A DNA stretch of 58,682 nt from a virus: IMG/VR virus record IMGVR_UViG_3300026178_000071. One strand, written 5' to 3'. Numbering within the stretch: position 1 is the stretch's first letter; each line of letters starts with the position of its first letter. Shown here in pieces: positions 1 through 58,682 of the stretch. The position numbers were made by a program, and so were the translations under genes. The notes under the pieces are model-generated. The model did no database searches, was not told the DNA's origin, and saw only the letters and a list, made by a program, of their open reading frames with translations.

Positions 1-24
1 ATCAACTGTACTTCTTCAATCACG
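1..24. repeat. Terminal overlap copy A: nt 1-24 identical to nt 58659-58682
   Basis: Both ends read atcaactgtacttcttcaatcacg. This fits a circular or circularly permuted assembly with unique length 58658 nt. Confidence 0.9.
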
Positions 25-13782: not shown

Positions 13783-13818
13783 GGTTGTGCCTCTACAGTA
13801 AGATTGCAATTGTCAAAA

Positions 13819-23173: not shown

Positions 23174-23658
23174 TACACTCCCCCCTTCATGCGCAGATAC
23201 CTCGCCCGGTCGTATTCTCGCTTCTGTTCGCGGTGAGCGGGTCCGTACTCTGTCACCATGTACCGAAGATTGCGCTCGTTTTTACAAGTCCTGCAATGCC
23301 ATCTACCCCCATAGGTCAGCACGTTGTCAGGTGTCAATGGGTGGCCGCGCTTGCAGACTCCCGTGCGAGCGATGACTACGCTTGGTGAGTTACCCCGGCG
23401 CATGTTGGTTTCCGAATCAACAGCTTCCAGGTGATCTGGCCGAACGCACTTTCGATTACGGCACAAGTGGTCAATCTGTAGGCCAGGAGGAACGGCCCCG
23501 TTGTGATACTCATAGCTCCACCGATGTGCGCCGACATTCCTGCCTTGCCACCAGAAAGAACCATACCCCCAAGAGTCTTTACCGGCTGTCCATTCCCAAC
23601 AGCCGTCCGTCTTGTTCACCTTGGCGAAGAAGCGTTCTACGTCATTGTCAGAGAACAT
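23173..23658 (-). CDS. HNH homing-type endonuclease
   Basis: GCWEWTAGKDSWGYG, AHRWSYEYHNGAVPPGLQIDHLCRNRKCVRPDHLEAV and a CKRGH..CRTC ribbon. I prefer ATG 23658. Confidence 0.8.
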   Translation of the reverse strand: MFSDNDVERFFAKVNKTDGCWEWTAGKDSWGYGSFWWQGRNVGAHRWSYEYHNGAVPPGLQIDHLCRNRKCVRPDHLEAVDSETNMRRGNSPSVVIARTGVCKRGHPLTPDNVLTYGGRWHCRTCKNERNLRYMVTEYGPAHREQKREYDRARYLRMKGGV

Positions 23659-23780
23659 CAGCACTTCCCCTTGCCGGGCTTCTTACCCTTCTTCGCCGGA
23701 CGCTTGGGGGCGGGCTTGTCCTCGTCCATGTCCTTCTTCAACCAGGGAGGCAGGTTCTTCGTCTTGGGCTTGGTTGCCAT
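23658..23780 (-). CDS. Small Lys-rich ORF (40 aa)
   Basis: Not in the ORF track. MATKPKTKNLPPWLKKDMDEDKPAPKRPAKKGKKPGKGKC. An AAGGAG SD lies 9 nt upstream, and its stop overlaps the HNH ATG by 1 nt. Confidence 0.35.
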   Translation of the reverse strand: MATKPKTKNLPPWLKKDMDEDKPAPKRPAKKGKKPGKGKC

Positions 23781-37000: not shown

Positions 37001-40000
37001 GTGCGGTCGGGGCTTCTGGTTCAACGCGCGGCGGCTCCGGCGCTGCGGTCATGGTGGGCAACTCAACGCGCGGCGCTTCCGGCGCGGGCTTCGTCAACCA
37101 ATCCGGCGCGGGTCGGGTTACTTCTGCTTCGGGTTCGGCTCGGACGGTTGGCGGAACTGCTTCCGCCATGTCGGGCTTCCCGAATCCGGCCTCCACGGGG
37201 CGATCACGGGGCGTAACCGGGACTTCTGCGGTTGCTCCGCGCTTGGCGGCTTCGTCGGCAATTTGCTGCTGCTGTTTGAGGATGATGCCATTGACTATAC
37301 CCTCTCTGTCTGTTGGTAGTTCAATGTCCCCGAACATGCTCGTCTGCTGCATGTTCGGCGTGTCACCCATGACCGTATCAGCGTACTCTTGCAGGAACTC
37401 ACGCACCATCTTCTGACGGCGGCTGATTAGGTCCAGGTGTTCGAGTAGCTGTTCCTGCAACTCGGTCAGTTCGCTCTCGTGCATGGTGACGAGCGTCCCG
37501 ATCTGGTCGGGGTGCAAGTACTCCCGCACGGTGAAACCCTGCTGCCGTAAGCGGGCCAGCATCTCAACGGCTGCGGCTATATCGGCCTCAATGGAGTATT
37601 CGCTCGCCTTGGCCCCGCTCCTGATTGCGGACTCAACCTTTGATAGCTTGCCAAGCGCACCGTATACCCCGGCCTCGATGGTCTTGATACCTGGGTCGGC
37701 GGAGTCGATGAAGATCGCGGCCAGCCGTTTACCAATGTCGCTCTGGAAGGTCTTGGCAAGCAGGGCATTCTTCAAGCGTTCCCGTCCGGCTGCGCTTAGG
37801 TTGCCTTCCTTGTCGATGAGGCTTCCGCGCTGTGCGACTGAGAAAGACTCAATGAACTCGTTGACCACTCCCTTGTTGGACGGCGATAACAGCGCGCCGT
37901 CTACGCTCTGATTGTCGCCAATCGCAAGGTAGGCTATCCGTGTATCGCTGATGCGCTCCACATCGTTGATTGCGTCCTCAGCGGCAGAGGCGGCAAGCTG
38001 GCGCTTCTCGTTGCTCTCCCGTGCGAACTGTACCAAATCTATGCCCTCGTCGTCCAGTTCTCGGACGAGTACGGGGTTCTTCATGGTCACGAACGATGCC
38101 GGGTCGATGCCAAACTGTGCGGCCCGGTCCTGTAGCATGTTCCGGTAAGCGGCAAGTTTCTGCGGCTCCCGGTCCCTGATGTAGCGCAAGGCCAGCGACC
38201 GACCGTTACCGGCCAGCACAACGTTTTCCTTCGTGACCACCATCGGCCCATCTTCCACGAACCGATGATCTACCAGTAGCCAGTCAGGATTGAACGTTGC
38301 AACGATCTCATCGACCTGAGACTTGCTCGCTTGCGCGGTGCGGTCCCGTGGCTGAAGCTCCTTCGGGAATTGTTCGTTGACACGGAACGCATCATCATGC
38401 GATACGTTCAGGTCGTCAAGGTCCACCACCTTGAACCGCAAGCTGTAAGGCTTGTCAGCCTTGATGCCGTAGGCTTGCGTATCCCGGCCCATGATACCTG
38501 GCGCTCTGATGCGGAAGTCCCAATAGTCACCGGGCGTTGCCGGTCGGAAGTCCACAACGGTAGGAGGCTCATACGGTTTGCCCTTGGGCTTCTCTAGCTT
38601 CGGCTTGGCTACTGCGTTACCTTGCGTTACAGCGCGTTTCTTGCCGCGCAACTCAGCGAGCGAACCATCATTGTACTTCTTCGCCCGCCCAAGATACTCC
38701 CACACCTTATTGTACTGCTCGCGTGATAGGTTGCGCAGATCGGGCGTGTCGAACTGTCCGGCTTCCTCGCCTGCCAGTTCCAGCGCGGCGTTGATGGTGG
38801 CCGTCTTTTCCTTGGGCGTCAGGCTCTCGACCGGGCGGGGGCGTCCGGCTCCCGCAGTCTTGTAATCGCTCATGCGCTTCCAAAGGGCGTCCATTTCCTT
38901 CCCGGTCAGGGACCGCAACTGCGGCAATAGGTCAGCGTCATCGGGTGGCGCGGCAGTTGGCGGCGGCTCCAATTCGGCCATACGCTGCTGCACGTTGGCG
39001 CGCATCGCTGGCCCCTGGCCCTGCAATACTTCTTCCTCTGGCTCACCGTCAAGAATACGGCGGGCGTACTCGTCTGCCTTGTTCCGCGCTCCCTGTGCGA
39101 TACCCTCGCCCACACCCTTGAGCGCGCTTGTTTCGTCGGCGGGCGCTGGTGCGCTTTCACCGAACGGTGAAACGGTTGGCGCTGGTGAAGTCGGTCCTGC
39201 GGGCGGCGACGGCGGACCCTTCGGCGGAACCTGTCCCGATGCTATCCGGCCCGTTGCGCGCTTTACATCCTCGTTGAACTCCAAGACGCGATTCTTCTGT
39301 CGCTCGTGCATGGCGTTCCACAGCACGCGGCGCTGCTTATTTACGTCCGCCCAAATGTCGCTGGTCGATGCGCCTGCCGCAAAGAAGGCGTCCTGCTTGG
39401 CTCGCCAGTAGTCGTTCACTAACTTGTCAGACTTGTCCCAGGTCTCTGAGACGTACTCCCGATACTTGCTCTGATTGACAATCGCAGCATCATCGAAGCC
39501 AAGCTCCGGCATCAGTTGCACGTCAAGTTCGTCCAACTCCCGCATGATCGCAAGCCGATTGCGACGACGCGCGGCCCTGGTCTCCCGCCACAATTCATTG
39601 CGGGCGAACTCGTCTAGCCCGCGCTGTACCTCGAACGTGGTCGCCATCAGCGCATCGTCAACCTCTTGCGCCTTACGCACTATCGCCACGCTCTTGTCAA
39701 GATAGGCGTTCAGGTCGTCAGCCGTGACGGTTTCAGACTCCATGATGTCGAGCGTGTCCGCTCGCAGTTCCTCAACTGCGGCGGATAGCTCGGCGTTACC
39801 GTTCATCTCCGCTTCTCTGACGGTGAGGCGGGCTACCGCTTCCTCCGGCGTGCGGGCTGCGCTTACCACTTCGTCAACGGCTTCCACAGCTTCCGGTCCC
39901 CCGGCCTTCATTGCCTCCTCGCGCACGTCCTCCGGCACGGTCAGCCGTGAGTCGGGCGGAGTCACCGCAGCGGGGGAGGGGGCAACAGTGCCTTCGGCGG

Positions 40001-48506: not shown

Positions 48507-48792
48507 GCCGTATCACGATCTCCAATGCGCCACCGTCAACCCCGCCAAGCTCCTGCTTGTCTGGCACCTTGCCCAAGAGTCGGTTGAACGTGAAGTCAGT
48601 CGCCCACGGGTCGGCGCGCTCTAGCTTGCGCTTCATGGCCGCGGCCCACCTGTCGAGCGTGCCATTCGAGATGACCTTGCTAAGCGAACTGGTCAGCTTC
48701 TCGATGTCGTCCTGCGATGGACGACCGCCACCGTTGCCTACTGCGACCTTATTACCAGGGAGAAAGCGCCCCCTCTCATCACGTTCTGCCAT
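48445..48792 (-). CDS. Terminase small subunit (putative)
   Basis: The N-terminus ERGRFLPGNKVAVGNGGGRP is typical of small terminase-like proteins. It sits directly upstream of terL and overlaps it by 62 nt. Confidence 0.5.
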   Translation of the reverse strand: MAERDERGRFLPGNKVAVGNGGGRPSQDDIEKLTSSLSKVISNGTLDRWAAAMKRKLERADPWATDFTFNRLLGKVPDKQELGGVDGGALEIVIRHVEVPYPDHTGETPGAASGS

Positions 48793-48808
48793 CGTGTTTC
48801 CTCGGAGA

Positions 48809-48979
48809 TTACCGTTTGATCTCGACTTTGATTACCCCCTCGTCCTGCTTGACCTGCATCAGCCACGCAGCTTCAGCCACGCAGCCTTCAGGCAGGTCGA
48901 GCACGACTCGGAGACCTCCATCAGCCAGCGTTCGCACTTGCGACACGATGGCATCGAAGGTGATCGACTTATCAGCCAT
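48809..48979 (-). CDS. Small ORF (56 aa)
   Basis: Not in the ORF track. MADKSITFDAIVSQVRTLADGGLRVVLDLPEGCVAEAAWLMQVKQDEGVIKVEIKR. Its ATG overlaps the upstream stop by 1 nt. Confidence 0.4.
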   Translation of the reverse strand: MADKSITFDAIVSQVRTLADGGLRVVLDLPEGCVAEAAWLMQVKQDEGVIKVEIKR

Positions 48980-49218
48980 CAGCCGCCCAGGAGGAACCGG
49001 CGCACCTTGCCCGGTTTGGGCTGCGCATACGCTGACTCGAAGCCAGCGCGCACGTCCTCGCGCGGTGCGTACAGTTCGACCAGCTTAGCCACAAAGCCAA
49101 GCACGATCACGACGAGCGACACCCACGGTTGACCAGCGAAGTAATCACCACTCAACCACTGAATCAACAGCGGAATGAGAGCGAGAACCGCGGTCCAAAC
49201 GAAACCAGGAATCTGCAT
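48979..49218 (-). CDS. Small two-TM membrane protein (holin-like topology), first gene of the late block
   Basis: ATG 49218 follows AGGAGG. MQIPGFVWTAVLALIPLLIQWL...PWVSLVVIVLGFVAKLV. The rest of track ORF 48979..49569 lies upstream of the regulatory motifs and is not coding. Confidence 0.45.
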   Translation of the reverse strand: MQIPGFVWTAVLALIPLLIQWLSGDYFAGQPWVSLVVIVLGFVAKLVELYAPREDVRAGFESAYAQPKPGKVRRFLLGG

Positions 49219-49251
49219 AGCTACCTCCTGAGCATGAGTGTACGCGTCCCA

Positions 49252-49273
49252 TGTTGCAGCAATTACACCCAAA
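49252..49273 (-). promoter_or_regulatory. 22-nt motif tgttgcagcaattacacccaaa, copy 2 of 2
   Basis: Exact copy of 27953-27974, 34 nt upstream of ATG 49218. On the minus strand, TACACT follows 14 nt after TTGCTG. Confidence 0.4.
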
Positions 49274-49277
49274 CCAA

Positions 49278-49365
49278 CCTCACCGAAATACCTCACCGAA
49301 ACGCGCACACCCTCCACGTGCCCCACGTGAGACCCCGCGCATTTTGGTGAGGCATTTTGGTGAGG
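49278..49365. promoter_or_regulatory. Operator-like array: 2+2 inverted copies of an 11-12-nt motif with 13-nt spacing
   Basis: cctcaccgaaa at 49278-49288 and 49291-49301. attttggtgagg at 49341-49352 and 49354-49365. ccacgtg x2 lies near the centre (49314-49329). Confidence 0.5.
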
Positions 49366-49416
49366 CAAGGAGTAACGAGTATTGGCAATTGGAACGAGTT
49401 GTGTAAGATTGCTTAC

Positions 49417-49445
49417 TTGACAGATGATACCAACGGGCGTACAAT
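49417..49445 (+). promoter_or_regulatory. Sigma70-type promoter TTGACA - 17 nt - TACAAT for the rightward module
   Basis: -35 at 49417-49422 and -10 at 49440-49445. Confidence 0.65.
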
Positions 49446-49684
49446 GGCTCTGCCATTGGCGAACGGCCAAGGGCAAGGCCAACAAACACGGAGGGAGAAC
49501 ATCAAGGGACAGCACACACGGCAACCGAATATCAGGACGAAAGGGCCACCACAGTGGCGACACTCTCACTCCCTAGAACTGAGAGCACACGGGAAAGATG
49601 AACCCGCCAAGCGTAACGGTAGTCTGCTGGTGATGCGCCAGTACCGACGATGCCCCATCGCAGGGGCGAAACTACCGGGAGGAC

Positions 49685-49894
49685 ATGATGCTACTTGTAA
49701 TGCTTCACGATCTGGCCGACATTGACCACCCATTCGGGCGAACGATACGCTTCGAGAGCGACGACATCAGCATCGCAGCGCAAGCAATTTCTGACGCATA
49801 CGGAGAGCCTGTCGAGGAAATCGAAGCGCAACTCAGGGGCAATCTGCACAACAACGGCGATCTCGTCCCACTGACTACCGCCGTCGAGGTATAG
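49685..49894 (+). CDS. Hypothetical protein (69 aa)
   Basis: GGGAGG SD; followed by a hairpin. Confidence 0.45.
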   Translation: MMLLVMLHDLADIDHPFGRTIRFESDDISIAAQAISDAYGEPVEEIEAQLRGNLHNNGDLVPLTTAVEV

Positions 49895-49899
49895 CCGAA

Positions 49900-49919
49900 A
49901 CTCCCCCGCTTGGGGGAGT
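49900..49919 (+). terminator. Perfect 8-bp hairpin actccccc-gctt-gggggagt
   Basis: Read directly, 6 nt after the stop. The loop is a tetraloop and there is no U-tract. Confidence 0.35.
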
Positions 49920-49982
49920 CTGACCGGGGTTGACGACCCGGCACCGAATGAGGCACGTCACATACCACAAGGGAGGAACACC

Positions 49983-51371
49983 GTGAGAGAATCATACGAG
50001 TCCATCAAGGAAATGGCGAAGTCGAAGGGCGTCAAGGCCACCGATCTACTGGCGCTGGCCCCCAAGAATGACCCCTTCTACGTAGGGGCGCCTGCGTCAG
50101 TCCAACAGGCGCAATGGTTCGCTGAGTTGTGGCAGCGGTTCAACTTCTCGAACGGCGTGCACTTGCGCCGTGTCCACTACCAGTTGGTGAGCCAGCCCGA
50201 CCCACGCATGGCGGACGGTCGGCCCTACGAGAACACTGAGGGTTGTTGGGACTACATCTGTAGCGCGGGCAAGTACGCCCGCATCTTGGGACTGGTCCCT
50301 GCTGATGCGTTCGTGGACCGGCGCAACCCCGACCCGCACTTGTTCGTGAACGACAACGACGACGAGCAGGAACCGCAAGCTTCAGTGTACGAGCCTTGGT
50401 TCTCTGTCCCACAGATCAACACGGACCTTGGCGAGTGGTTGAGTTGGGAGATCGGTTCCCCCAACATCAGCGGCTACGAGTACAGACCCTCAGACCAGCC
50501 CTACCACGTTGAGTTGTGGATTGAGAAGTCCACGATGGACGATGTGCTCTTGCCCCTGGGTGAAGAACTTGGGGTGAACGTGTGCACCAGCCTGGGATTC
50601 CAGAGCATCACGTCTGTGATTGACATGCTCAAGCGCATCGCCAACCGGGGCAAGCCCGCTCGCATCTTGTACATCTCAGATTTTGACCCGGCAGGCGATG
50701 GTATGCCGGTCGGCGTGGCACGCCAGATTGAGTTCTGGTTGGAGGAGTTCGCCTGGAGCGCAGACATTGCGCTCGAACCCATCGCCTTGACGGGTGAGCA
50801 GGTCCGGCGCTGGCGCTTGCCCCGTATCCCCATCAAGGAGAGTGACAAGCGAGCCGGTAGGTTTGAGGCGCTGTATGGTGAGGGTGCGGTTGAGTTGGAC
50901 GCCCTCGAAGCCTTGCACCCCGGCGTGCTGGCCGACATTGTACGGCAAGCGGTTGAACCCTTGCGGGATGAGCGGCTAGAGCGGAAGCTCAGCGATGCGT
51001 ACTACAAAGCGCGGGACATGGCGCGCAATCAATGGCGCATGTACGCAAACGAGGAAGCGAAAGCCTTGGCCGAACTCAGCCAGGAAGCACGGAACATTCT
51101 CGACACGTACAAGGAACGGCTGCAAGCCTTGGCCGACGAACTCAACAAGGAAATGGCCCCGATTGTCGAGCGGTTGGAGGAACAGAAAGTAGCCTTGTCC
51201 GAGAAGATTCGGACGTTCGACCCCGAACTTCCTGACCGACCGGAGGGTGAGGCGGAGGGCGTGGAGACCTGGGACTGGCTGTTTGATTCGTGCCGGTCAT
51301 ACGAGGAACAGATCAACCACTACCGGGCGAGGAAAGGCAAGGTGAGTATCGAGGAACTGGTAGAGGCATAG
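49983..51371 (+). CDS. Topo VI-A/Spo11-like protein (winged-helix Tyr region plus Toprim) with C-terminal coiled coil
   Basis: HLRRVHYQLVS is a candidate 5Y-CAP Tyr region. The Toprim Glu is in VELWIEKST, and the Toprim acidic box is in LGFQSITSV...ARILYISDFDPAGDGMP. GTG start after AAGGGAGGA. Confidence 0.5.
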   Translation: MRESYESIKEMAKSKGVKATDLLALAPKNDPFYVGAPASVQQAQWFAELWQRFNFSNGVHLRRVHYQLVSQPDPRMADGRPYENTEGCWDYICSAGKYARILGLVPADAFVDRRNPDPHLFVNDNDDEQEPQASVYEPWFSVPQINTDLGEWLSWEIGSPNISGYEYRPSDQPYHVELWIEKSTMDDVLLPLGEELGVNVCTSLGFQSITSVIDMLKRIANRGKPARILYISDFDPAGDGMPVGVARQIEFWLEEFAWSADIALEPIALTGEQVRRWRLPRIPIKESDKRAGRFEALYGEGAVELDALEALHPGVLADIVRQAVEPLRDERLERKLSDAYYKARDMARNQWRMYANEEAKALAELSQEARNILDTYKERLQALADELNKEMAPIVERLEEQKVALSEKIRTFDPELPDRPEGEAEGVETWDWLFDSCRSYEEQINHYRARKGKVSIEELVEA

Positions 51372-51378
51372 GCCCAAA

Positions 51379-51398
51379 GGGAGGGAGCAATCCCTCCC
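51379..51398 (+). other. Perfect 8-bp hairpin gggaggga-gcaa-tccctccc
   Basis: Read directly, 8 nt after the stop of the Toprim gene. Confidence 0.35.
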
Positions 51399-51482
51399 GC
51401 TGTAATGCGGGAAGTCCGGCAGCGCAACCCCGGCGGCAGACGCAGAGCGCAGCACATACCACACACAAGGGAGGATTACACC

Positions 51483-51767
51483 ATGTACGTAGTGATAAAT
51501 AAAGTTCAGGGAATCGAACTCAACGGCAACACCCTCAGCGGAAACACCTTCCCGGCCAAGGACTACATCAAGGCTTACCTGGGGGGCAAGTGGAACGCCA
51601 GCAGCAAAACTTGGACCGTTGACGCCGACAAGGTTGCCCGCTGGCTGAACAACACATCCAATTTCTCGGCCGATAATAACCCGCCTACTCCGAAGTCGGC
51701 AGTAGCAGGCATCGGCGGTTGGTGCTCCAAGTGCCACGACTGGACTTACGGCGATTGCGGTCACTAA
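51483..51767 (+). CDS. Small protein with KxW (DUF5710/DUF3560-like) module and C-terminal Cys/His cluster
   Basis: MYVVINKVQGIELNGNTLSGNTFPAKDYIKAYLGGKWNASSKTWTV ... CSKCHDWTYGDCGH. AAGGGAGGA SD. Confidence 0.45.
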   Translation: MYVVINKVQGIELNGNTLSGNTFPAKDYIKAYLGGKWNASSKTWTVDADKVARWLNNTSNFSADNNPPTPKSAVAGIGGWCSKCHDWTYGDCGH

Positions 51768-51779
51768 GCGACACGCCCC

Positions 51780-51804
51780 GCCGGGTGGGGGGTGAAACCC
51801 GGCA
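51780..51804 (+). repeat. Repeated stem-loop element, copy 1: gccgggt-G6-tgaa-acccggc
   Basis: The same element with a G8 run lies at 54129-54155. Both are followed by ..gacagcATGaa. Confidence 0.7.
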
Positions 51805-51817
51805 GGAGAGAGACAGC

Positions 51818-51994
51818 ATGAAACCGAACGAGCAGACCAAGGTCAAACGCCCGTGCGCCGTATGTGGGGAGTCCCAACACCGTAAAAGGGTGTGGGAGAA
51901 GTGGCATAGCAAGGTGCTCTGCTACGCTTGCGCGAGCAAGGGCTGGACATTCGATGCGGACGGCAACACCAAACAAAGGGAAAGGAGAGTGTAA
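51818..51994 (+). CDS. Small zinc-ribbon protein (58 aa)
   Basis: MKPNEQTKVKRPCAVCGES...CYACASKG. Confidence 0.4.
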   Translation: MKPNEQTKVKRPCAVCGESQHRKRVWEKWHSKVLCYACASKGWTFDADGNTKQRERRV

Positions 51995-51996
51995 CT

Positions 51997-52285
51997 ATGG
52001 CGATGACGATACGTTGCCGTAAACGAGACCAAAGCTCTGCGAGAACTCGCCGCCCGCCTGGGGTACATCGCCAGGGACGGGCGCTTTGCTGGCGAGGGCA
52101 GCATCAACAAGATGATGCAGGCGATTGCGCGGGGGGAGTTGCACGTAACGCAGAATGACGGCGAGCCGACCGTCTACAGCTACGCCCCGCATGGTGCGGT
52201 GGCCTACGATGTTGACACGCCCGAAGGCGCAGCCGCGGCGCACCGGGCGGATATGATGCGGGTCGCAGACCCGAACGAGTACTAG
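51997..52285 (+). pseudogene. Frameshifted paralogue of the RHH-like gene at 54334-54651
   Basis: The first 17 nt (ATGGCGATGACGATACG) match the paralogue. After codon 5 the homologous frame (VAVNETKALRELAARLGYIARDGRFAGEGSINKMMQAIARGEL...) is +1 relative to the ATG. The ATG frame gives Arg-rich nonsense. Confidence 0.5.
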
Positions 52286-52294
52286 GAGGATACC

Positions 52295-52852
52295 ATGAAG
52301 AACTGCACGGACGATAGGACTTGTCTCAACGAAAGCCTGATCGAAGAACTCACTCAGGCATTGGCGGCGCTGCTTTGGCAGCACGACAACAATGACGGCA
52401 CGCTGTGCGGCATGGCCCTACAGGACGCACGGGCCGCACTTGCCAAGGCGCAGGCGCAGCCCGAACCACTTGGCAGCACGGTAAACCCGCAAGACCGCAC
52501 CTTCAAGTGCATGTACTGCGGTGGGGTCATGTCCTGGGAGGACATGGAGAACGGTTGGGACTTGTATTACTGCCAGGGCGAGACGTGCCGCCATCAGCAC
52601 ACCGTGGCGCGGGAATACTGGACATGGTACGTCAACGTGTACAGCATCAGCCAAGGCTACGGGGGACCGGAGGAAGGCGGCTGGTGGTACAACGTGGGCG
52701 AGCCGGTAACTTCCGTGCGCTGTGACACGCACACCGAAGCGGAGACAATGGCCGACATTCTCCGCAAGAAGTACCTCAACACGGGCAAGAGCCGCAGCAC
52801 ATTGGGCGGCGACGACACGCCATACCCGACCGAGCGACCGCACTACGAATAG
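52295..52852 (+). CDS. Hypothetical protein with CMYCGG...CQGETC zinc ribbon (185 aa)
   Basis: ORF track; AGGAGG SD. Confidence 0.5.
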   Translation: MKNCTDDRTCLNESLIEELTQALAALLWQHDNNDGTLCGMALQDARAALAKAQAQPEPLGSTVNPQDRTFKCMYCGGVMSWEDMENGWDLYYCQGETCRHQHTVAREYWTWYVNVYSISQGYGGPEEGGWWYNVGEPVTSVRCDTHTEAETMADILRKKYLNTGKSRSTLGGDDTPYPTERPHYE

Positions 52853-52859
52853 CTAACCA

Positions 52860-52893
52860 GGGGTGGGAGAATCCCGCGGGACTTTCCCACCCC
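52860..52893 (+). other. Long GC hairpin (ggggtggga ... tcccacccc with inner tcccgcggga palindrome)
   Basis: Read directly, 8 nt after the stop. It is followed by a CA-rich leader. Confidence 0.35.
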
Positions 52894-52920
52894 CCACTAC
52901 ATACCAGGAGAGGACACACC

Positions 52921-53427
52921 ATGAAACCCCCGAAGATCACGCCAGAACTACGGCAAGCCGTTGATACCTTTATCATGGCGCAAGCCTACGCCAAGGCTGT
53001 CAAACCCATCGTGCGCAAGTATCAGCAGGACGTGCTTGACGCCAACGACTTCCACTACAGCGCGGAATGGTCCAAGGAGTACACGCGCAACGGCGAGCCG
53101 CTCGCAGCCGGACGCTGCACCGACATTGACAGCACCTACCTGATGGACGACGAGGACGCAGCCAAGTACTTCGCGCTGCTCGACATTGCCAAGGAACAGG
53201 CGGGCTTCGTCGGGTTGCCCGCGGGCAACTGCCCGCTGCTCATGGCCGAGTACGATGTTATCAAAGCACGGTGGGCCATCGCTCACGCAGCCGAGTACAT
53301 CACGACCGAGACCGGCCACACCGCAACGTGTGACGCGATCTGCGCAGCCAACAAGCTCACCGAGTACACCGATTTGATTGTCGGGTTGGTCCTGTCACTG
53401 GACGGGAGAAAGAGAGGGCGCAAGTGA
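52921..53427 (+). CDS. Hypothetical protein (168 aa)
   Basis: ORF track; AGGAGAGG SD. Confidence 0.5.
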   Translation: MKPPKITPELRQAVDTFIMAQAYAKAVKPIVRKYQQDVLDANDFHYSAEWSKEYTRNGEPLAAGRCTDIDSTYLMDDEDAAKYFALLDIAKEQAGFVGLPAGNCPLLMAEYDVIKARWAIAHAAEYITTETGHTATCDAICAANKLTEYTDLIVGLVLSLDGRKRGRK

Positions 53428-53666
53428 TACTCGCACGGGTTGAAACCAAGCGCGGCACGGCCATACTGCATGACATTGACGGCGAGAAGTTCGCCACGTT
53501 CCGCGACCCTGACGGAGAGTTCGTGCATCACTCCACTTGGAGCGATGCGATTATCAAGACGGTCGAGCGGGCATGGGCCACCTACCACGCCATGAGCCGC
53601 AACTACACGGACAATGGGAGGGTGCTACCTATCACCCTCCCGCCACACTTGGAGGTAACACCATGA
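53424..53666 (+). CDS. Hypothetical protein (80 aa)
   Basis: GTG start overlapping the upstream stop (GTGA). Confidence 0.4.
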   Translation: MILARVETKRGTAILHDIDGEKFATFRDPDGEFVHHSTWSDAIIKTVERAWATYHAMSRNYTDNGRVLPITLPPHLEVTP

Positions 53667-53851
53667 CCCGCAAGCGCCGAGCACCGCAGTTGATCTGCGA
53701 CGATCTCCCTATTTTCACCGGCACGCCTATCATGGTGCCCGACCCGACCAAGCCCAAGGCAGAGGAACCCAAGCCGCCGACCCCGCCCGTTGACGAGTGG
53801 GGTTGGTGCGGAAATCTGCTCGATGCGAGTTTTGATTTTGTTGCGGAATGA
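53663..53851 (+). CDS. Hypothetical Pro/Lys-rich protein (62 aa)
   Basis: ATGA overlap with the upstream gene; GGAGG SD. Confidence 0.4.
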   Translation: MTRKRRAPQLICDDLPIFTGTPIMVPDPTKPKAEEPKPPTPPVDEWGWCGNLLDASFDFVAE

Positions 53852-53903
53852 GCCGCACCCATATGGTATGATGGTACCAACACACACAAGGGAGGATTAC
53901 ACC

Positions 53904-54116
53904 ATGAGAACCAAGGCAACGATCTTCAAGGCAAGCGAGTTCAAGGCCCTGGCAATGAATGACCAGGGGGCCAGCTATGTTGTAGGCAACGACATGCAGT
54001 ACCCATCTGTTCGTGCGGCCAAGCGAGCCGCTCGCGCTGAGATGGGCAGCGGGTGGCGCATCAAGATCATCGACGTGTACACCGGCGCGATTATCGAGAC
54101 GTTCCGTATCCGATGA
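53904..54116 (+). CDS. Hypothetical protein (70 aa)
   Basis: Preceded by TGGTATGAT (extended -10-like) and the conserved leader ACACACAAGGGAGGATTACACC. Confidence 0.45.
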   Translation: MRTKATIFKASEFKALAMNDQGASYVVGNDMQYPSVRAAKRAARAEMGSGWRIKIIDVYTGAIIETFRIR

Positions 54117-54128
54117 CTCGCAGCCTTC

Positions 54129-54155
54129 GCCGGGTGGGGGGGGTGAAACCCGGCA
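54129..54155 (+). repeat. Repeated stem-loop element, copy 2: gccgggt-G8-tgaa-acccggc
   Basis: See 51780-51804. Confidence 0.7.
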
Positions 54156-54167
54156 ACAGGGGACAGC

Positions 54168-54356
54168 ATGAACGTGAACAAGGACGCGACCTACCTGGGG
54201 GACGGCGTATACGTGCGAAACGATGGTTATCACATCATACTGATAACGGACGGTAACACCATCTACCTTGACTCTGGTGTACTCACCGGCCTGTTGGCCT
54301 ACGTGGAGAAGCTGAACAAAGAGGGGGCCGAACATGGCAATGACGATACGACTTGA
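54168..54356 (+). CDS. Hypothetical protein (62 aa)
   Basis: ORF track; follows stem-loop copy 2. Confidence 0.45.
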   Translation: MNVNKDATYLGDGVYVRNDGYHIILITDGNTIYLDSGVLTGLLAYVEKLNKEGAEHGNDDTT

Positions 54357-54651
54357 CGCTGAGGAAACCGCCAAGCTACGGGAGAAGGCCGCGCGGTTGG
54401 GCTACATGGCGAATGACGGGCGCTTCGTGGGCGAGGGCAGCATCAATAAGCTTGTGTGTGCCATCGCAGCGGGCGAGGTCGTGATGATGGAACCGGAAAC
54501 CTGGGACAGCCTCCGCACCGCAGCCCGTGCGCTGTGTGACAGCCTCCGCATATGGCATGACAACGGGGGCTACGAGTGCCACTGTCAGGAACACAAGGAT
54601 TTGGAGATTGCCCTTGGCGAGACAGGGAGAATGATAGGGTACAAACCATGA
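54334..54651 (+). CDS. RHH-like protein (105 aa), intact paralogue
   Basis: MAMTIRLDAEETAKLREKAARLGYMANDGRFVGEGSINKLVCAIAAGE shows a strand-helix-helix pattern. Confidence 0.5.
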   Translation: MAMTIRLDAEETAKLREKAARLGYMANDGRFVGEGSINKLVCAIAAGEVVMMEPETWDSLRTAARALCDSLRIWHDNGGYECHCQEHKDLEIALGETGRMIGYKP

Positions 54652-54654
54652 CAC

Positions 54655-54690
54655 AAACCGCCGCGCGATGAGGGTCGCGCGGCGGTTTTT
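54655..54690 (+). terminator. Strong intrinsic terminator, probably bidirectional, at the convergence of the rightward module and the leftward early operon
   Basis: 11-bp stem ccgccgcgcga/tcgcgcggcgg, loop tgaggg, flanked by aaa on the 5' side and ttttt on the 3' side. Confidence 0.8.
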
Positions 54691-54749
54691 GCGCGTCTGG
54701 AACCCGTGGAAGTGTGCATTATCTTTACACATAACCAACAGGTAGACTC

Positions 54750-55238
54750 TTACAGCAAGCCGTCAAGCCAACCCCGCTTGACCTTGACGGGTTGCCCCGC
54801 AGGTTTGGGAACCTCTCCCGCATGATGACCGGCTACCTGGGGGCGCTCGATACCCGTATGATCTCCCCCCGACCAGGGGACCGGCATACCTACGGCACGC
54901 TGTGCGGCCTTGTCAATCATGCGATAGGACACATGACACCCGTAACGCTGTAGCAAGTAGTTGGCCCACCGCGCTTGATGCGCGGGAATGTCGAACGCAA
55001 TCCACCACGGAGCCATAGGTTCTTCGTTGGAACAGCGCGTCACCCGCCGCCCCCACATCGGGCGGACCCCGTAGCGCGCAAGCATACGCTCCACATCACC
55101 CCCGCAGGAACCCCCAGGCGGCAGCACTTCAAAGTGCGCGCCACCGCCCCGCCCCGCGACCAGCATCACCCCACTACCCAAAACAGAACTTACCTTCGCT
55201 ATCAAGTTGAAACTGTCCAGTAATGCGGTCAGGTCCAT
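54750..55238 (-). CDS. Hypothetical protein (162 aa), last gene of the early operon
   Basis: ATG 55238 (MDLTALLDSF) lies after the stop of the upstream gene. Confidence 0.45.
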   Translation of the reverse strand: MDLTALLDSFNLIAKVSSVLGSGVMLVAGRGGGAHFEVLPPGGSCGGDVERMLARYGVRPMWGRRVTRCSNEEPMAPWWIAFDIPAHQARWANYLLQRYGCHVSYRMIDKAAQRAVGMPVPWSGGDHTGIERPQVAGHHAGEVPKPAGQPVKVKRGWLDGLL

Positions 55239-55741: not shown

Positions 55742-57004
55742 CTACCCCTCCCGAACGTACTCGCACAGCCGCTTGGCGCGCGTCGTACCCATGCCAAGCG
55801 CGCGGCGTACTGCGTCCACGCCCCCACCCGTGGCGAGTATCTGACCCGCCGCGGCCATCTCCCCCTCTGAGAAGTCGACTTGCTTGCGCCCCCGGCTTTC
55901 CCCTTTCAGGCCGACGGCGATACGGTCAGCGCGCGGCAGCAGCGCATCGAGACTACCCGGCCCACCCTTAGGTATACGCGACCAGATATGTTTGTTCTCG
56001 ATGTACGGTGCCTGGAAGTGGACGGTCTCGCCCGCGGCCAGATACACCATGTCCCCCCGTTGCAAGAGCGAAGCCACCCCCGTTTTCGCCCGCCCTGTCG
56101 CGCCCCAGGCTTCTGTTTCACGCGCCACCCGCCCGAAGATCGACACGGGGAAATTAGACAAGGCCTCACCCACCGTCTTTTGCTTGGGTGCCTGCGTCGT
56201 GGCGATAACGTGTATACCCCAGGCCGCAGCCACCTGAATGATGCGCGCCAGCAAGGGCGCAACGTCGCTACTCTCGTCCGTGTAGTGCTTGACTTCCTCC
56301 ACCACCACGAGCAGGCGCGGCGTAGTCTCGCCCGTGATCTCCCGCCGACTGATCTCGACCATCACCCACGTCAACAGCCGCACAACCTCAAATACGTCAC
56401 GCTGTATGGGGTGCAACAAGTGCCCGCTGTGCGTGAACGGCAGCAACCCGCCCCGGTTGCCTACCTTGGGGTCGGCGGCGATGAAACCCAGGGCGTCAGG
56501 CTTGTTCTGCATGAACAGCCGGTACAGCAGCCACTTCAACAGCATTGACTTGCCGCCTTGCGTGATGCCGCCAATCAGGATATGCGCCTGCGTCTCGTCG
56601 CGCAGGTCCAACCACAACGGCGCGGCCCCGATCTCGTTGACCCGAATCCCCAGGGGCACGGCGAGCGAGTGCGGGGGCTTTAGCTTATCTTCCAACCGGC
56701 GACCCATTAGCACCCGGCGCATAGGTTCGGGCTTGGGTATCTCGATCAGCAGCGCGCCGTTGAGTGGCGTCACTATGCTGGTCTTGGCCCCGGCCACCAT
56801 GCCCAACGCGCGGGCCATGTTCTCCACGTCCTCCGGTCGGACCCCCTCCGCTGGCATACACCTGTAGGCGTGGTATTGCGGAGTGTCCGCGAGCGGAGTG
56901 ACGATACACCCGGCGTTCTTGCCCCGACTTAGGCGCGTGTTTAGCGCACGCTGTAGCTGCACAGCAATGATGTGCGGGTCATACGTTGGCAGCGTTCCGT
57001 TCAT
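55742..57004 (-). CDS. FtsK/SpoIIIE-family DNA translocase-like ATPase
   Basis: Walker A ILIGGITQGGKS and Walker B RLLVVVEEV, plus IHVIATTQAP. I prefer ATG 57004 because codons upstream form a terminator-like hairpin. Confidence 0.7.
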   Translation of the reverse strand: MNGTLPTYDPHIIAVQLQRALNTRLSRGKNAGCIVTPLADTPQYHAYRCMPAEGVRPEDVENMARALGMVAGAKTSIVTPLNGALLIEIPKPEPMRRVLMGRRLEDKLKPPHSLAVPLGIRVNEIGAAPLWLDLRDETQAHILIGGITQGGKSMLLKWLLYRLFMQNKPDALGFIAADPKVGNRGGLLPFTHSGHLLHPIQRDVFEVVRLLTWVMVEISRREITGETTPRLLVVVEEVKHYTDESSDVAPLLARIIQVAAAWGIHVIATTQAPKQKTVGEALSNFPVSIFGRVARETEAWGATGRAKTGVASLLQRGDMVYLAAGETVHFQAPYIENKHIWSRIPKGGPGSLDALLPRADRIAVGLKGESRGRKQVDFSEGEMAAAGQILATGGGVDAVRRALGMGTTRAKRLCEYVREG

Positions 57005-57011
57005 TCCCACC

Positions 57012-57055
57012 CCCAAACAAAGAGCGCCCGTGCTTTTTGTGGTAAGCACGAGCGC
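57012..57055 (-). terminator. Hairpin plus T-tract on the minus strand just upstream of the FtsK-like gene (attenuator or terminator)
   Basis: 12-bp stem with one mismatch (57024-57035 / 57044-57055), followed on the minus strand by TCTTTGTTTG. Confidence 0.4.
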
Positions 57056-58658: not shown

Positions 58659-58682
58659 ATCAACTGTACTTCTTCAATCACG
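58659..58682. repeat. Terminal overlap copy B (identical to nt 1-24)
   Basis: Read directly. Confidence 0.9.

What the first reader, a model, noticed from the sequence alone, without database searches (positions are those of the whole stretch)
49983..51371. Stand-alone Topo VI-A/Spo11-like (Toprim plus putative catalytic-Tyr wHTH) protein as the lead gene of the rightward module
The 462-aa product has a Toprim core with the Glu in VELWIEKST and the acidic box in ILYISDFDPAGDGMP. The spacing and the GFQS element between them recall the A subunit of type IIB topoisomerases. Upstream, HLRRVHYQLVS could supply the catalytic Tyr of a 5Y-CAP-like domain. A ~110-aa coiled coil follows. No B-subunit (GHKL ATPase) gene is present in the genome. 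Orphan A-subunit-like proteins (called Mini-A) have been reported on mobile elements with no known activity, and Toprim modules of this type also occur in the Wadjet JetD nuclease. The function of such a protein in a phage is open: DNA cleavage, genome-end processing or anti-defence.
Basis: partly seen in the sequence, partly recalled or inferred. Interest (0 to 1): 0.65.

Follow-up and report, generated by a model that had tools for sequence, protein, structure and literature searches.

The report
Long-form phage Mini-A topoisomerase-like protein
This phage gene encodes a stand-alone relative of the DNA-cutting subunit of type IIB topoisomerases (the 'Mini-A' family, function still unknown), and belongs to a large, undescribed longer subfamily that keeps every catalytic residue and sits mostly beside replication genes of mobile elements.

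Summary
ORF 49983-51371 (+) encodes 462 aa, with a GTG start and a GGGAGG ribosome-binding site.
- The AlphaFold2 model (pLDDT 86) finds only Topo VI A subunits as significant PDB matches.
- The core is homologous to canonical phage Mini-A (BLASTP 3e-24; PHROG 6247, 9e-31).
- Arg62/Tyr66, Glu181, Asp233/Asp235/Gly238 and the C-terminal ELDAL box are invariant in 327-330 of 330 relatives.
- No GHKL ATPase is detectable in this complete circular 58.66-kb genome.

New here: the protein is not a typical ~300-aa Mini-A. It belongs to a discrete long-form clade of about 460 aa (more than 1,400 50%-identity clusters at E ≤ 1e-30). This clade adds an N-terminal NDPF segment, a helical hairpin of about 80 aa and a fixed WLFDSxRxYxxQ tail.

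The gene moves as a single-gene module among phages and integrative elements of many phyla, often beside primases, Rep or ParB-like genes. One relative is fused to a Topo VIII-type ATPase.

Most likely it is a self-dimerising, Mg2+-dependent DNA cleavage-religation enzyme acting on the element's own DNA early in replication. That activity is inferred, not shown.

Two corrections: a 69-aa ORF precedes the gene, and the 'coiled coil' is an amphipathic helical hairpin.

The parts
49277..49364 (.). Two tandem pairs of a 12-13-nt motif in opposite orientation: ACCTCACCGAAA x2 at 49277-49301 and GCATTTTGGTGAG x2 at 49339-49364. Candidate operator or iteron sites in the divergent control region.
   Evidence: the repeat finder families D5 and D6, both 100% identical. 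The two motifs are partial reverse complements by direct reading. Their function was not tested.
49417..49445 (+). Sigma-70-type promoter-like site, TTGACA-17 nt-TACAAT, that would drive the rightward operon
   Evidence: 11 of 12 consensus matches and the best site in 48700-55000. This is a consensus match only.
49685..49894 (+). 69-aa ORF with its own GGGAGG ribosome-binding site. It is the actual first gene of the operon, and its function is unknown.
   Evidence: A 68-aa gene sits at the same position in the 97%-identical relative L097.
49970..49975 (+). Shine-Dalgarno GGGAGG, 7 nt upstream of the GTG start
   Evidence: Direct reading of the sequence.
49983..51371 (+). Long-form Mini-A gene (462 aa plus stop codon)
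49983..50147 (+). N-terminal helical segment (aa 1-55), specific to the long form. It carries the N29-D-P-F32, W45-F46 and W50 motifs.
   Evidence: The long-form-specific part is aa ~14-35, which has no counterpart in the short Mini-As. D30, P31 and W45 are kept in 327-328 of 330 sequences. pLDDT is 81-97. The segment is retained in the GHKL fusion P0266.
50148..50327 (+). Winged-helix / 5Y-CAP-like region (aa 56-115). R62 is at 50166-50168 and the putative catalytic Y66 at 50178-50180.
   Evidence: R62 is kept in 327 of 330 and Y66 in 328 of 330, the other two being gaps. These residues align with the Arg/Tyr of Mini-A and of Topo VIII.
50496..50882 (+). Toprim domain (aa 172-300). E181 is at 50523-50525, K182 at 50526-50528, D233 at 50679-50681, D235 at 50685-50687 and G238 at 50694-50696.
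   Evidence: E181 is kept in 329 of 330; D233, D235 and G238 in 330 of 330. The E-to-D spacing is 52 residues, as in M. mazei Top6A E202/D254 (PMC13040014). Weak Pfam DUF2399 hit at aa 200-251. Coordinates.
50886..50906 (+). T2BI-type box A-V-E304-L-D-A-L308, the counterpart of the Mini-A 'xWELDAL' signature
   Evidence: E304 is kept in 330 of 330, L305 in 328, D306 in 329 and A307 in 329. Short Mini-As have SWELDAL at the aligned position. The box is defined in PMC7671362.
50976..51215 (+). Amphipathic helical hairpin (aa 332-411), specific to the long form
   Evidence: Helices 332-375, 380-390 and 392-411. Periodicity is 3.6 residues. Segment length is conserved (median 105 aa between D329 and L433) although the sequence is poorly conserved.
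51276..51323 (+). Conserved C-terminal tail W432-L-F-D-S-x-R438-x-Y440-x-x-Q443-x-x-x-Y447
   Evidence: L433 is kept in 305, R438 in 318 and Q443 in 320 of 330 sequences. The segment is exactly 15 aa across the family. pLDDT is about 88-89 over aa 431-450.

Best explanation
The gene encodes a member of a discrete long-form clade of the Mini-A subfamily of type IIB topoisomerase A-subunit homologues.

**Shown**
- It has the Topo VI-A fold (winged-helix/5Y-CAP plus Toprim).
- It keeps an invariant Arg62/Tyr66, an invariant Mg2+-binding set Glu181/Asp233/Asp235, and the invariant Glu304 box.
- No GHKL ATPase is encoded in the genome.
- The gene travels as a self-contained single-gene module in phages and in integrative or conjugative elements, usually inside or next to their replication and partition genes.
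- It lies downstream of a strong sigma-70-like promoter-like site.

**Inferred**
- The protein works as a homodimer with hybrid active sites. Tyr66 of one protomer attacks the DNA backbone next to the Mg2+ held by the Toprim triad of the other. This gives a covalent 5'-phosphotyrosyl intermediate, either a nick or a staggered double-strand break, that can be resealed without ATP.
- The Arg62-Glu304 pair acts as the 'electrostatic clasp' that holds the tyrosine back in Topo VI, so cleavage is probably gated, for example by DNA bending or supercoiling.
- The long-form helical hairpin and tail probably provide the stable dimerisation, or the gating, that Top6B or the Spo11 partners supply elsewhere.

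**Most speculative step**
Its biological job is to cut and reseal the element's own DNA early after entry or induction, in support of replication. That could be relief of topological stress, unlinking of daughter circles, or creation of a nick or break that starts sigma-mode or recombination-dependent replication (the phage also encodes RecT).
For: **Fold.** The model has pLDDT 86 and pTM 0.79. The eight best PDB matches are all Top6A, from E 2.9e-6 (1d3y) to 1.7e-2 (2zbk), with probability 0.96-1.0.

**Family.** PHROG 6247 'DNA topoisomerase' matches at 8.8e-31 over aa 61-352. BLASTP to the Listeria phage LWP01 Mini-A gives 3e-24. The shared invariant motifs are shown. hhalign puts the motifs in register with Topo VIII.

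**Selection.** The catalytic and clasp residues are invariant in 327-330 of 330 sequences that go down to 36% identity.

**Clasp.** In M. mazei Top6A, E342-R102 restrains Y106, and the E342Q mutant is hyper-cleaving (PMC13040014). R102 is at Tyr-4, as R62 is here.

**Stand-alone activity is plausible.** SPO11 alone makes covalent double-strand breaks in vitro, with dimerisation limiting the reaction (PMC11922746 and the abstracts).

**No ATPase.**

**Autonomy.** No gene is conserved next to it across 8 loci or 88 loci, while the protein itself stays about 50% identical.

**Replication context.** Adjacent genes include D5_N/P4-type primase-helicase (7 loci), Prim-Pol (5 loci, plus one Prim-Pol+VapE), AEP primase (8), ORF2/G2P-type Rep (9) and ParB-N-like directly upstream (10). 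An integrase lies within the fetched flank (up to 10 kb) in 36 loci. DnaG/AAA_25 and DnaB genes are nearby in L002 and L007. The short Mini-A of PaMx25 lies between a ligase and a Sak4 annealase.

**Interchangeable with a topoisomerase A-moiety.** P0266 fuses a Topo VIII-type GHKL-transducer module to a long-form Mini-A.

**Promoter.**
Against: - No biochemical activity has ever been reported for any Mini-A (PMC7671362; Asgard virus preprint).
- Top6A alone is not known to cleave DNA without Top6B (my own knowledge).
- The link to Top6A rests on the fold and on short motifs. Pfam TP6A_N and the Top6A/Spo11 Toprim family give no hit at E <= 10, a core profile finds no PDB sequence, and hhalign to a two-sequence Topo VIII profile gives only 39% probability.
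- Dimerisation and active-site geometry could not be examined, because only a monomer could be modelled and no coordinates were available.
- In the window the replication genes (initiator, DnaC-like loader, RecT) are not adjacent to the gene; they lie about 8-17 kb further round the circle. Its immediate operon partners are small proteins of unknown function, which would fit a host-takeover or anti-defence operon equally well.
- Many of the replication-gene associations come from a few related element lineages (Ktedonobacteria, Alphaproteobacteria), so they are not 26 independent observations.
Confidence: 0.55

Rival explanations
1. It is the DNA-gate subunit of a true ATP-dependent type IIB topoisomerase whose ATPase partner (a 'Mini-B') is unrecognised, encoded elsewhere, or borrowed from the host. 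The conserved N-terminal NDPF segment would be the docking site.
For: P0266 is a natural fusion of a Topo VIII-type GHKL-transducer module to a long-form Mini-A. A stand-alone paralogue of that B module is encoded next to it. The N-terminal segment is almost invariant, is specific to the long form, and lies exactly at the fusion junction. [quoted passage not shown]
Against: No GHKL domain or B-module homologue is found in the complete phage genome or in about 100 other loci, except L102. No neighbour of any kind is conserved across loci. The B module itself is very rare, with 3 homologues among 5.8 billion proteins by the word-indexed search.
Confidence: 0.15
2. It is a site-specific nickase that initiates rolling-circle or sigma-mode replication, functionally analogous to HUH Rep proteins, as proposed for the Mini-A of Asgard skuldviruses.
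For: The proposal is in the Asgard virus preprint. A 5'-phosphotyrosyl nick leaves a 3'-OH primer. The gene lies next to primases and helicases in many elements. Fusions to XRE-type HTH domains (P0002, P0125) suggest sequence-specific targeting in some members.
Against: The gene coexists with dedicated initiators. An ORF2/G2P-type HUH Rep is present in 9 loci, and the window has a replication initiator plus a DnaC-like loader. WyrdV4 likewise has both a Rep and a Mini-A. The Top6A/Spo11 architecture is a symmetric dimer built for double-strand cleavage.
Confidence: 0.12
3. It is a hydrolytic Toprim nuclease of the JetD/MksG type. The element would use it against host DNA, competing elements or a defence system (an anti-defence or host-takeover role).
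For: Weak Pfam DUF2399 (JetD C-terminal Toprim) hits: E 0.0046 for the window protein, and 24.9 bits against a gathering score of 23.4 for P0168. Short Mini-As are auto-named 'DUF2399' or 'JetD C-terminal domain' in UniRef. In the window the gene shares an operon with small unknown proteins behind a strong early-type promoter. Relatives sit near Acb2/Tad1-like, ArdC-N, RadC and BrnT/A genes.
Against: [quoted passage not shown] No PADLOC JetD model matches at E <= 10. No JetD or MksG structure appears among the top 50 Foldseek matches, while Top6A fills the top eight. There are no jetABC genes.
Confidence: 0.08
4. It is a catalytically dead DNA-binding or scaffold protein derived from a topoisomerase.
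For: No activity is known for any Mini-A (PMC7671362).
Against: The tyrosine, the arginine, the whole metal-binding triad and the clasp glutamate are essentially invariant over 330 sequences down to 36% identity. That pattern is not expected for an inactive fold.
Confidence: 0.03

Closest known systems
Mini-A (stand-alone type IIB topoisomerase A-subunit homologues of viruses and proviruses; Takahashi et al. 2019/2020, PMC7671362). Examples: the Listeria phage LWP01 301-aa protein, Pseudomonas phage PaMx25 gp51, PHROG 6247.
   Same: It has a homologous core of about 275 aa (29% identity, BLASTP 3e-24). It shares R-x-x-aromatic/His-Y, EK, DxDPxG and the ELDAL box. It has no B subunit. It is encoded by phages and integrated elements. 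Function is unknown in both.
   Different: It is about 460 aa rather than about 300 aa. It adds an N-terminal NDPF segment, insertions in and after the CAP domain, a helical hairpin of about 80 aa and a fixed WLFDSxRxYxxQ tail. The box reads [A]-V/T-ELDAL instead of xWELDAL. It forms a separate clade: core identity is 26% to short forms against 52% within the long form. It is absent at more than 60% identity from the 50,697 deposited phage genomes searched.
Topo VIII (plasmid-borne fused B-A type IIB topoisomerases; Gadelle et al. 2014 as cited in PMC7671362). Examples here: P0271 and P0272.
   Same: It is borne by mobile elements. The catalytic Tyr, Glu and DxD align. The T2BI box has Val before ELxA (RVELNAM in Topo VIII, AVELDAL here). 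One long-form member (P0266) carries a Topo VIII-type B moiety.
   Different: The window protein has no GHKL or transducer moiety. It lacks the Topo VIII-specific Y-x-x-R-P. Core identity is only about 16%.
Top6A / Spo11 (A subunit of Topo VI and the meiotic double-strand-break protein)
   Same: Top6A is the best structural match, with CAP and Toprim aligned together. The protein has the same catalytic residue set, the same 52-residue Glu-to-Asp spacing, and an Arg(Tyr-4)/Glu pair matching the R102-E342 clasp (PMC13040014).
   Different: There is no HMM-detectable sequence similarity. It has no Top6B/TOPOVIBL-type partner. It has different N- and C-terminal appendages. It is bacterial or phage-borne.
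JetD / MksG (nuclease subunit of Wadjet/MksBEFG)
   Same: It has a Toprim domain of the same superfamily (weak DUF2399 hits) and a distant Topo VI-A-like architecture.
   Different: [quoted passage not shown] No PADLOC JetD match is found. There is no SMC operon.

Membership tests
Mini-A | 5Y-CAP motif with a conserved Arg four residues before the catalytic Tyr (RxxY/F-Y) | tested here: met
   R62-R-V-H-Y66. R62 is kept in 327 of 330 and Y66 in 328 of 330 sequences. His65 replaces the usual Tyr/Phe. The motif aligns with LRQVYY of LWP01 and LRQLYY of PaMx25.
Mini-A | Toprim Glu followed by DxDxxG | tested here: met
   E181 (329 of 330) and D233-F-D235-P-A-G238 (330 of 330 each).
Mini-A | C-terminal T2BI box with the xWELDAL signature | tested here: inconclusive
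   ELDAL is invariant, but the Trp is replaced by Val (252 of 330) or Thr (68 of 330), giving AVELDAL. The short forms in hand have SWELDAL. The variant is intermediate between Mini-A (WELDAL) and Topo VIII (RVELNAM).
Mini-A | Length of about 300 residues, with no N-terminal extension before the CAP | tested here: not met
   The protein is 462 aa. It has an N-terminal insertion at about aa 14-35 and about 130 extra C-terminal residues relative to the 296-301-aa phage Mini-As. The 120 short forms retrieved are 295-314 aa.
Mini-A | No B (GHKL) subunit encoded alongside | tested here: met
   None is found in the complete genome, and none in about 100 related loci except L102.
Mini-A | Encoded by viruses or integrated elements | tested here: met
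   The window is a tailed-phage genome with capsid, portal, TerL and tail fibre genes. Relatives sit in phage contigs and in elements that carry an integrase.
Mini-A | Groups with Mini-A, apart from Topo VI and Topo VIII, in a phylogeny | tested here: inconclusive
   In a crude identity-based NJ tree rooted on two Topo VIII sequences, the long and short forms are each monophyletic, and the long form is closer to the short form (26%) than to Topo VIII (16%). No Top6A sequences were available and no likelihood method was used.
Topo VIII | N-terminal GHKL ATPase plus transducer fused or adjacent | tested here: not met
   Absent from the window protein and from the genome. Present only in the relative P0266.
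Topo VIII | Arg (often Arg-Pro) three residues after the catalytic Tyr, and an RVELNAM box | tested here: not met
   The window protein has Y66-Q-L-V-S and AVELDAL. P0271 and P0272 have Y-A-I-R-P and RIELNAM/RVELNAM.
Top6A / Spo11 | Winged-helix/5Y-CAP plus Toprim fold | tested here: met
   In the Foldseek PDB search the top eight matches are all Top6A, with probability 0.96-1.0.
Top6A / Spo11 | Matches the curated sequence families (Pfam TP6A_N, and PF21180 Top6A/Spo11 Toprim) | tested here: not met
   No hit at E <= 10. No PDB sequence hit with the full or the core profile.
Top6A / Spo11 | Tyr of one protomer and Toprim of the other form a hybrid active site in a dimer | not testable with these tools
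   Only a monomer could be predicted, and no coordinates were accessible.
JetD / MksG | Toprim nuclease within a jetABCD/mksBEFG operon, without the Topo VI-type 5Y-CAP tyrosine | tested here: not met
   There is no SMC operon and no PADLOC JetD hit. The CAP tyrosine is invariant. Only weak DUF2399 similarity is seen.

The most novel reading that the evidence does not exclude
The long-form Mini-A is a self-sufficient, ATPase-free type IIB DNA gate, in effect a prokaryotic or viral counterpart of Spo11. Its own helical hairpin and tail supply the dimerisation and gating that Top6B or the Spo11 accessory proteins supply elsewhere. It makes programmed, covalently capped breaks or nicks in the element's DNA to launch sigma-mode or recombination-dependent replication. 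The P0266 chimera (a Topo VIII B moiety joined to a long Mini-A) would then show that A and B modules of type IIB enzymes are exchanged between mobile elements. That bears directly on whether the ancestor of Topo VI and Spo11 was a stand-alone viral A protein.
Probability: 0.18. Interest if true: 0.8.

Novelty: new variant of a known kind. Interest (0 to 1): 0.5.

Why it matters
Mini-A proteins are the only branch of the type IIB topoisomerase/Spo11 family with no known activity or role. They bear on two open questions:
- whether an A subunit can cut DNA on its own;
- whether the ancestor of Topo VI and Spo11 was a viral stand-alone protein.

This work defines a very large, strongly conserved long-form clade that:
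- keeps the catalytic residues and the recently described cleavage-control clasp;
- carries its own candidate dimerisation module;
- occurs in cultivable bacteria (Dictyobacter, Ktedonobacter, Bradyrhizobium, Mesorhizobium, Phyllobacterium, Roseiarcus);
- has one natural fusion to a Topo VIII-type ATPase.

That makes the question experimentally approachable, with specific mutants to test (Y66F, E181A, E304Q, and deletion of the hairpin). If the protein only turns out to be an accessory relaxing enzyme of mobile elements, the result is useful annotation for thousands of 'hypothetical proteins' but not a conceptual change.

Tried and rejected
- **NCBIfam and PADLOC** gave only coiled-coil noise.
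- **phmmer and two profile searches against PDB sequences** gave only apolipoprotein-type helical matches, or nothing. The Top6A relationship therefore cannot be claimed from HMM-level sequence similarity.
- **Foldseek against the viral BFVD library** gave nothing significant.
- **Megablast of 18.7 kb of the window against deposited phages** gave no match.
- **A conserved partner gene was looked for and not found.** All-against-all BLAST of neighbours in 8 loci found only shadow ORFs inside the gene itself. Clustering of 1,800 neighbour proteins from 97 sequences found no universal neighbour.
- **The first neighbour script assigned window coordinates to the wrong locus.** It was discarded and redone.
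- **FtsK/TraG-like association was tested and rejected.** It occurs only in the window and in L020/L023.
- **Homologues of the P0266 B module in the window or other loci:** none.
- **The hammerhead-like element upstream of the gene** is below the Rfam threshold, has a non-canonical core, is absent from the 97% relative and has no Rfam hit in relatives. It is not treated as part of the system.
- **An Rfam scan of six sources failed** on the size limit.
- **tRNA scan:** none found.
- **A homodimer or P0266 structure prediction was considered** but could not be run under the tool's input rules.
Full report

The ORF at 49983-51371 (+) is present and encodes 462 aa. It starts with a GTG that lies 7 nt downstream of a GGGAGG Shine-Dalgarno. 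Residues before the first internal Met (Y5, K9) are conserved in homologues, so the GTG start is right.

They are far from chance. In an alignment of 330 distinct full-length relatives that are 36-97% identical to the query, the key residues are kept as follows:

| Residue | Conserved in (of 330) |
|---|---|
| R62 | 327 |
| Y66 | 328 (the other two are gaps) |
| E181 | 329 |
| K182 | 329 |
| D233, D235, G238 | 330 each |
| E304 | 330 |
| L305 | 328 |
| D306, A307 | 329 each |

The window ends overlap by 24 nt, so it is a circular assembly of a complete genome of about 58.66 kb. It is a tailed phage. It encodes a major head protein, an endolysin, a collagen-like tail fibre, RecT, a replication initiator and a DnaC-like loader. 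By position and length it also has a portal and a large terminase. A 4,883-aa polyvalent-type protein carries a ddrB-ParB domain and a Strawberry-notch-like helicase.

**2. What is the protein?**

Curated family libraries are nearly silent:
- Pfam gives only a sub-threshold DUF2399 hit on the DxD region.
- NCBIfam and PADLOC give noise.
- PHROGs, however, gives phrog_6247 'DNA topoisomerase' at 8.8e-31 over aa 61-352.
- tblastn finds about 26-29% identical proteins of about 300 aa in 64 deposited phages, many annotated 'putative DNA topoisomerase'.

These are the Mini-A proteins of Takahashi et al. (PMC7671362). That paper defines Mini-A by RxxY/F-Y in a 5Y-CAP, a Toprim Glu plus DxDxxG, a C-terminal 'xWELDAL' box, a length of about 300 aa, the absence of a B subunit, and a viral or proviral location.

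A direct alignment with the Listeria phage LWP01 protein (301 aa) and PaMx25 gp51 (296 aa) shows R62, Y66, E181-K182, D233, D235, P236, G238 and E304-L308 invariant across both forms (BLASTP 3e-24).

An AlphaFold2 model built on 30 homologues is confident (pLDDT 86, pTM 0.79). Its eight best PDB matches are all Topo VI A subunits: 1d3y at E 2.9e-6, the 2026 M. mazei cryo-EM structures 9o0g, 9o8p and 9o7o, then 2q2e and 2zbk. Probabilities are 0.96-1.0 over 306-345 aligned columns. Primases, type IIA topoisomerases and RNase M5 appear only at E > 0.1, and no JetD or Spo11 entry is in the top 50.

Sequence profiles do not reach Top6A. The pairwise E-value is 3e-4, but the probability is only 39% because the template profile has two sequences.

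**3. What is new: a long-form clade.**

The protein is not a typical Mini-A. Compared with the short forms it has:
- an extra N-terminal stretch (aa ~14-35), within a conserved helical segment of aa 1-55 that carries N29-D-P-F32, W45-F46 and W50;
- insertions at aa 73-80 and at about aa 116-165;
- three amphipathic helices (aa 332-375, 380-390, 392-411);
- a tail, W432-L-F-D-S-x-R-x-Y-x-x-Q-x-x-x-Y447.

The N-terminal motifs and the tail are almost as conserved as the active site. The tail is exactly 15 aa in the whole family, and the helical segment keeps its length (median 105 aa) although its sequence is free to vary. The T2BI box reads A-V/T-ELDAL rather than xWELDAL.

The word-indexed search found more than 2,688 relatives, and the best 120 are all about 450-520 aa and mostly unnamed. 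The exhaustive profile search over 1.84 billion cluster representatives found 8,624 at E <= 1e-3 and 1,463 at E <= 1e-30. Most of the best 150 are full-length long forms.

The short family is equally large and is tightly 295-314 aa. Core identity averages 52% within the long form, 26% between long and short forms, and 16% to Topo VIII. In a crude NJ tree the long and short forms are each monophyletic.

The long form occurs in species-representative genomes and metagenome-assembled genomes of Chloroflexota (especially Ktedonobacteria), Bacillota, Alpha- and Gammaproteobacteria, Acidobacteriota, Actinomycetota, Planctomycetota, Verrucomicrobiota, Armatimonadota and Bacteroidota. It also occurs in one methanogen metagenome-assembled genome. 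Cultured strains include Dictyobacter alpinus (two copies), Ktedonobacter robiniae, Bradyrhizobium erythrophlei, Mesorhizobium sangaii, Phyllobacterium trifolii and Roseiarcus fermentans.

**4. B subunit.**

No GHKL/Bergerat ATPase is detectable in this genome.

One long-form relative, P0266 (893 aa), sits on a plasmid-like contig with a ParM-like gene. It carries an N-terminal module with clear N (EVVDNSLD), G1 (DLGEGI) and G2 (GALGIGL) boxes. That module is 27% identical over 435 aa (E 1e-41) to the B moiety of P0271 and P0272.

P0271 and P0272 are textbook Topo VIII by the paper's criteria: Y-A-I-R-P, HDADGPG, RIELNAM/RVELNAM, and a GxxGxG G2 box.

The A half of P0266 has every long-form hallmark, including the NDPF segment at the junction, and it falls inside the long clade. 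A stand-alone paralogue of the B module lies next to it.

This chimera shows that the long-form module can serve as the DNA-gate half of a type IIB enzyme. But the B module is extremely rare (3 homologues in the 5.8-billion-protein collection) and is absent from the other ~100 loci. The usual state is therefore truly stand-alone.

**5. Context.**

In the window, a promoter-like site with 11 of 12 consensus matches (TTGACA-17-TACAAT, 49417-49445) precedes:
- a conserved 69-aa ORF (49685-49894);
- the Mini-A gene;
- a run of small genes with no family assignment, up to about 54.65 kb.

This operon diverges from the packaging and structural operon. The same synteny (giant protein, structural genes, terminase, then the divergent Mini-A) recurs in the related phage contigs L001, L002, L004/L005, L011 and L019.

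Beyond that lineage the neighbourhood is unrelated, while the protein itself stays about 50% identical. The gene therefore behaves as a mobile single-gene module.

Clustering 1,800 neighbour proteins from 88 loci gave no universal partner. The recurrent neighbours, annotated, are:

| Neighbour | Loci | Position |
|---|---|---|
| Tyrosine integrase | 36 | within the fetched flank (up to 10 kb) |
| ParB-N-like protein | 10 | directly upstream |
| ORF2/G2P-type HUH Rep | 9 | nearby |
| AEP primase | 8 | nearby |
| D5_N/P4-type primase-helicase | 7 | nearby |
| Prim-Pol | 5, plus one Prim-Pol+VapE | adjacent |
| TraG/FtsK-like coupling protein | 2 related loci | directly upstream in L020 |

At least 26 of the 88 loci carry a primase or Rep-type gene close by. 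These come from perhaps five or six independent element lineages. The short Mini-A of PaMx25 lies between an ATP-dependent ligase and a Sak4 annealase, and that of LWP01 lies just after an excisionase and upstream of a DNA polymerase.

The weight of the context evidence is therefore on the early, replication and recombination module of mobile elements. In the window itself an anti-defence or host-takeover role cannot be excluded. Relatives sit near Acb2/Tad1-like, ArdC-N, RadC and BrnT/A genes.

**6. Mechanism.**

Shown: the fold, the invariant catalytic set, the lack of an ATPase, and the autonomy of the gene.

Inferred from Topo VI and Spo11: a homodimer with hybrid active sites that makes 5'-phosphotyrosyl intermediates.

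Two recent results make this more than an analogy:
- Mouse SPO11 alone makes covalent double-strand breaks in vitro, and dimerisation is the limiting step (PMC11922746, PMC11922745). A stand-alone A-type protein that carries its own helical hairpin and a fixed tail is a natural candidate for a constitutive dimer.
- In M. mazei Topo VI, the E342-R102 salt bridge holds Y106 away from the Toprim triad E202/D254/D256, and the E342Q mutant is hyper-cleaving (PMC13040014). R102 is at Tyr-4 and the Glu-to-Asp spacing is 52 residues. Here R62 is at Tyr-4, the E181-to-D233 spacing is 52, and E304 lies in the corresponding C-terminal box. All of these are invariant.

By this mapping, which rests on motif position rather than on a structural superposition, the family appears to have kept the safety catch as well as the catalytic residues. 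This argues for a gated, reversible cleavage reaction rather than a simple nuclease.

What opens the clasp in the absence of a transducer is unknown. DNA bending or supercoiling, or the long-form appendages, are the candidates.

**7. Rivals.**

- **JetD/MksG-like hydrolytic nuclease.** This is disfavoured. [quoted passage not shown]
- **Rolling-circle initiator** (the idea in the Asgard virus preprint). This is weakened because the gene coexists with dedicated Rep or initiator proteins.
- **Hidden-partner topoisomerase.** This is kept alive by P0266 and by the conserved N-terminal segment, but it lacks any conserved neighbour.
- **Inactive scaffold.** This is contradicted by the conservation pattern.

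**8. Verdict.**

The kind of protein (Mini-A) was published in 2019, so it is not categorically new.

It is a new variant: a large long-form clade that, as far as the papers consulted and the curated family libraries show, has not been described. The clade has added conserved modules, a replication-module association and a natural Topo VIII-type fusion.

Function remains inferred. Interest is moderate, at 0.5.

Noticed in passing
window 28047-42698 (-): A giant 4,883-aa ORF carries a ddrB-like ParB domain (aa 1414-1547) and a Strawberry-notch-like helicase (AAA_34/Helicase_C_4, aa 3186-3798), with most of its length unassigned. This is the polyvalent-protein type. Giants of 3,243-3,925 aa sit in the same position in related phage contigs (L001, L002, L004), some with N6_Mtase/SNF2/ResIII hits.
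   Followed up: partly
window 49893-49962 (+): A Hammerhead type II ribozyme-like element lies exactly between the 69-aa ORF and the Mini-A start (26.5 bits against a gathering score of 37). GAAAC, stem III, the GUC triplet and stem I are present, but the core reads CCGAAUGA instead of CUGAUGA. It is a discrete 78-nt insertion that is absent from the 97%-identical relative L097. There is no Rfam hit in relatives.
   Followed up: partly
window 49277-49301 and 49339-49364: Two exact tandem duplications, ACCTCACCGAAA x2 and GCATTTTGGTGAG x2, are partial reverse complements of each other (core TTTYGGTGAGG). They lie in the divergent control region just upstream of the strong promoter-like site, and look like operators or iterons.
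   Followed up: no
window 1-24 and 58659-58682: The last 24 nt repeat the first 24 nt, so the window is a circular assembly and hence a complete genome of about 58.66 kb. No tRNA genes were found.
   Followed up: yes
L102 1433-4114 (+) and 4270-5457 (-): P0266 is a chimeric type IIB enzyme: a Topo VIII-type GHKL plus transducer moiety fused to a long-form Mini-A. It sits on a plasmid-like contig with a ParM-like gene and an integrase-like gene. A stand-alone 395-aa paralogue of the B moiety is encoded convergently next to it.
   Followed up: partly
P0002 (L098-L101) and P0125: Some long-form Mini-As are fused to XRE-type HTH domains. P0002, the 77%-identical relative, has one at the C-terminus, and P0125 has two at the N-terminus. 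This suggests sequence-specific DNA targeting in some members.
   Followed up: no
window 55742-57049 (-): An FtsK/SpoIIIE-like ATPase (Pfam E 1.8e-13; PHROG 'FtsK/SpoIIIE-like') is encoded in a tailed-phage genome, on the strand opposite to the Mini-A operon. It is not associated with Mini-A in other loci.
   Followed up: partly
window 19115-20386 (-), 23173-23664 (-), 13258-13809 (-), 12118-12819 (-): Several genes are embedded in the structural and late region: a family-2 glycosyltransferase fused to a methyltransferase, an HNH endonuclease, a weak REase_MTES_1575-like ORF and a weak CHAT-like ORF.
   Followed up: no
window 50097-50948 (-) and the equivalent positions in L001-L008: Antisense 'shadow' ORFs inside the Mini-A gene are conserved between loci, simply because the sense strand is conserved in high-GC DNA. 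They are not evidence of antisense genes.
   Followed up: yes
L038, L044, L045, L047, L049, L051, L053, L059-L061, L063, L064, L073 (Ktedonobacteria and relatives): A recurrent integrative element has the order: 128-aa protein, 236-aa membrane protein with a Pro/Gln-rich tail, long Mini-A, AEP primase-like protein, ORF2/G2P-type (RepSA-like) Rep, then integrase. It is present twice in Dictyobacter alpinus. It resembles actinomycete integrative elements.
   Followed up: partly
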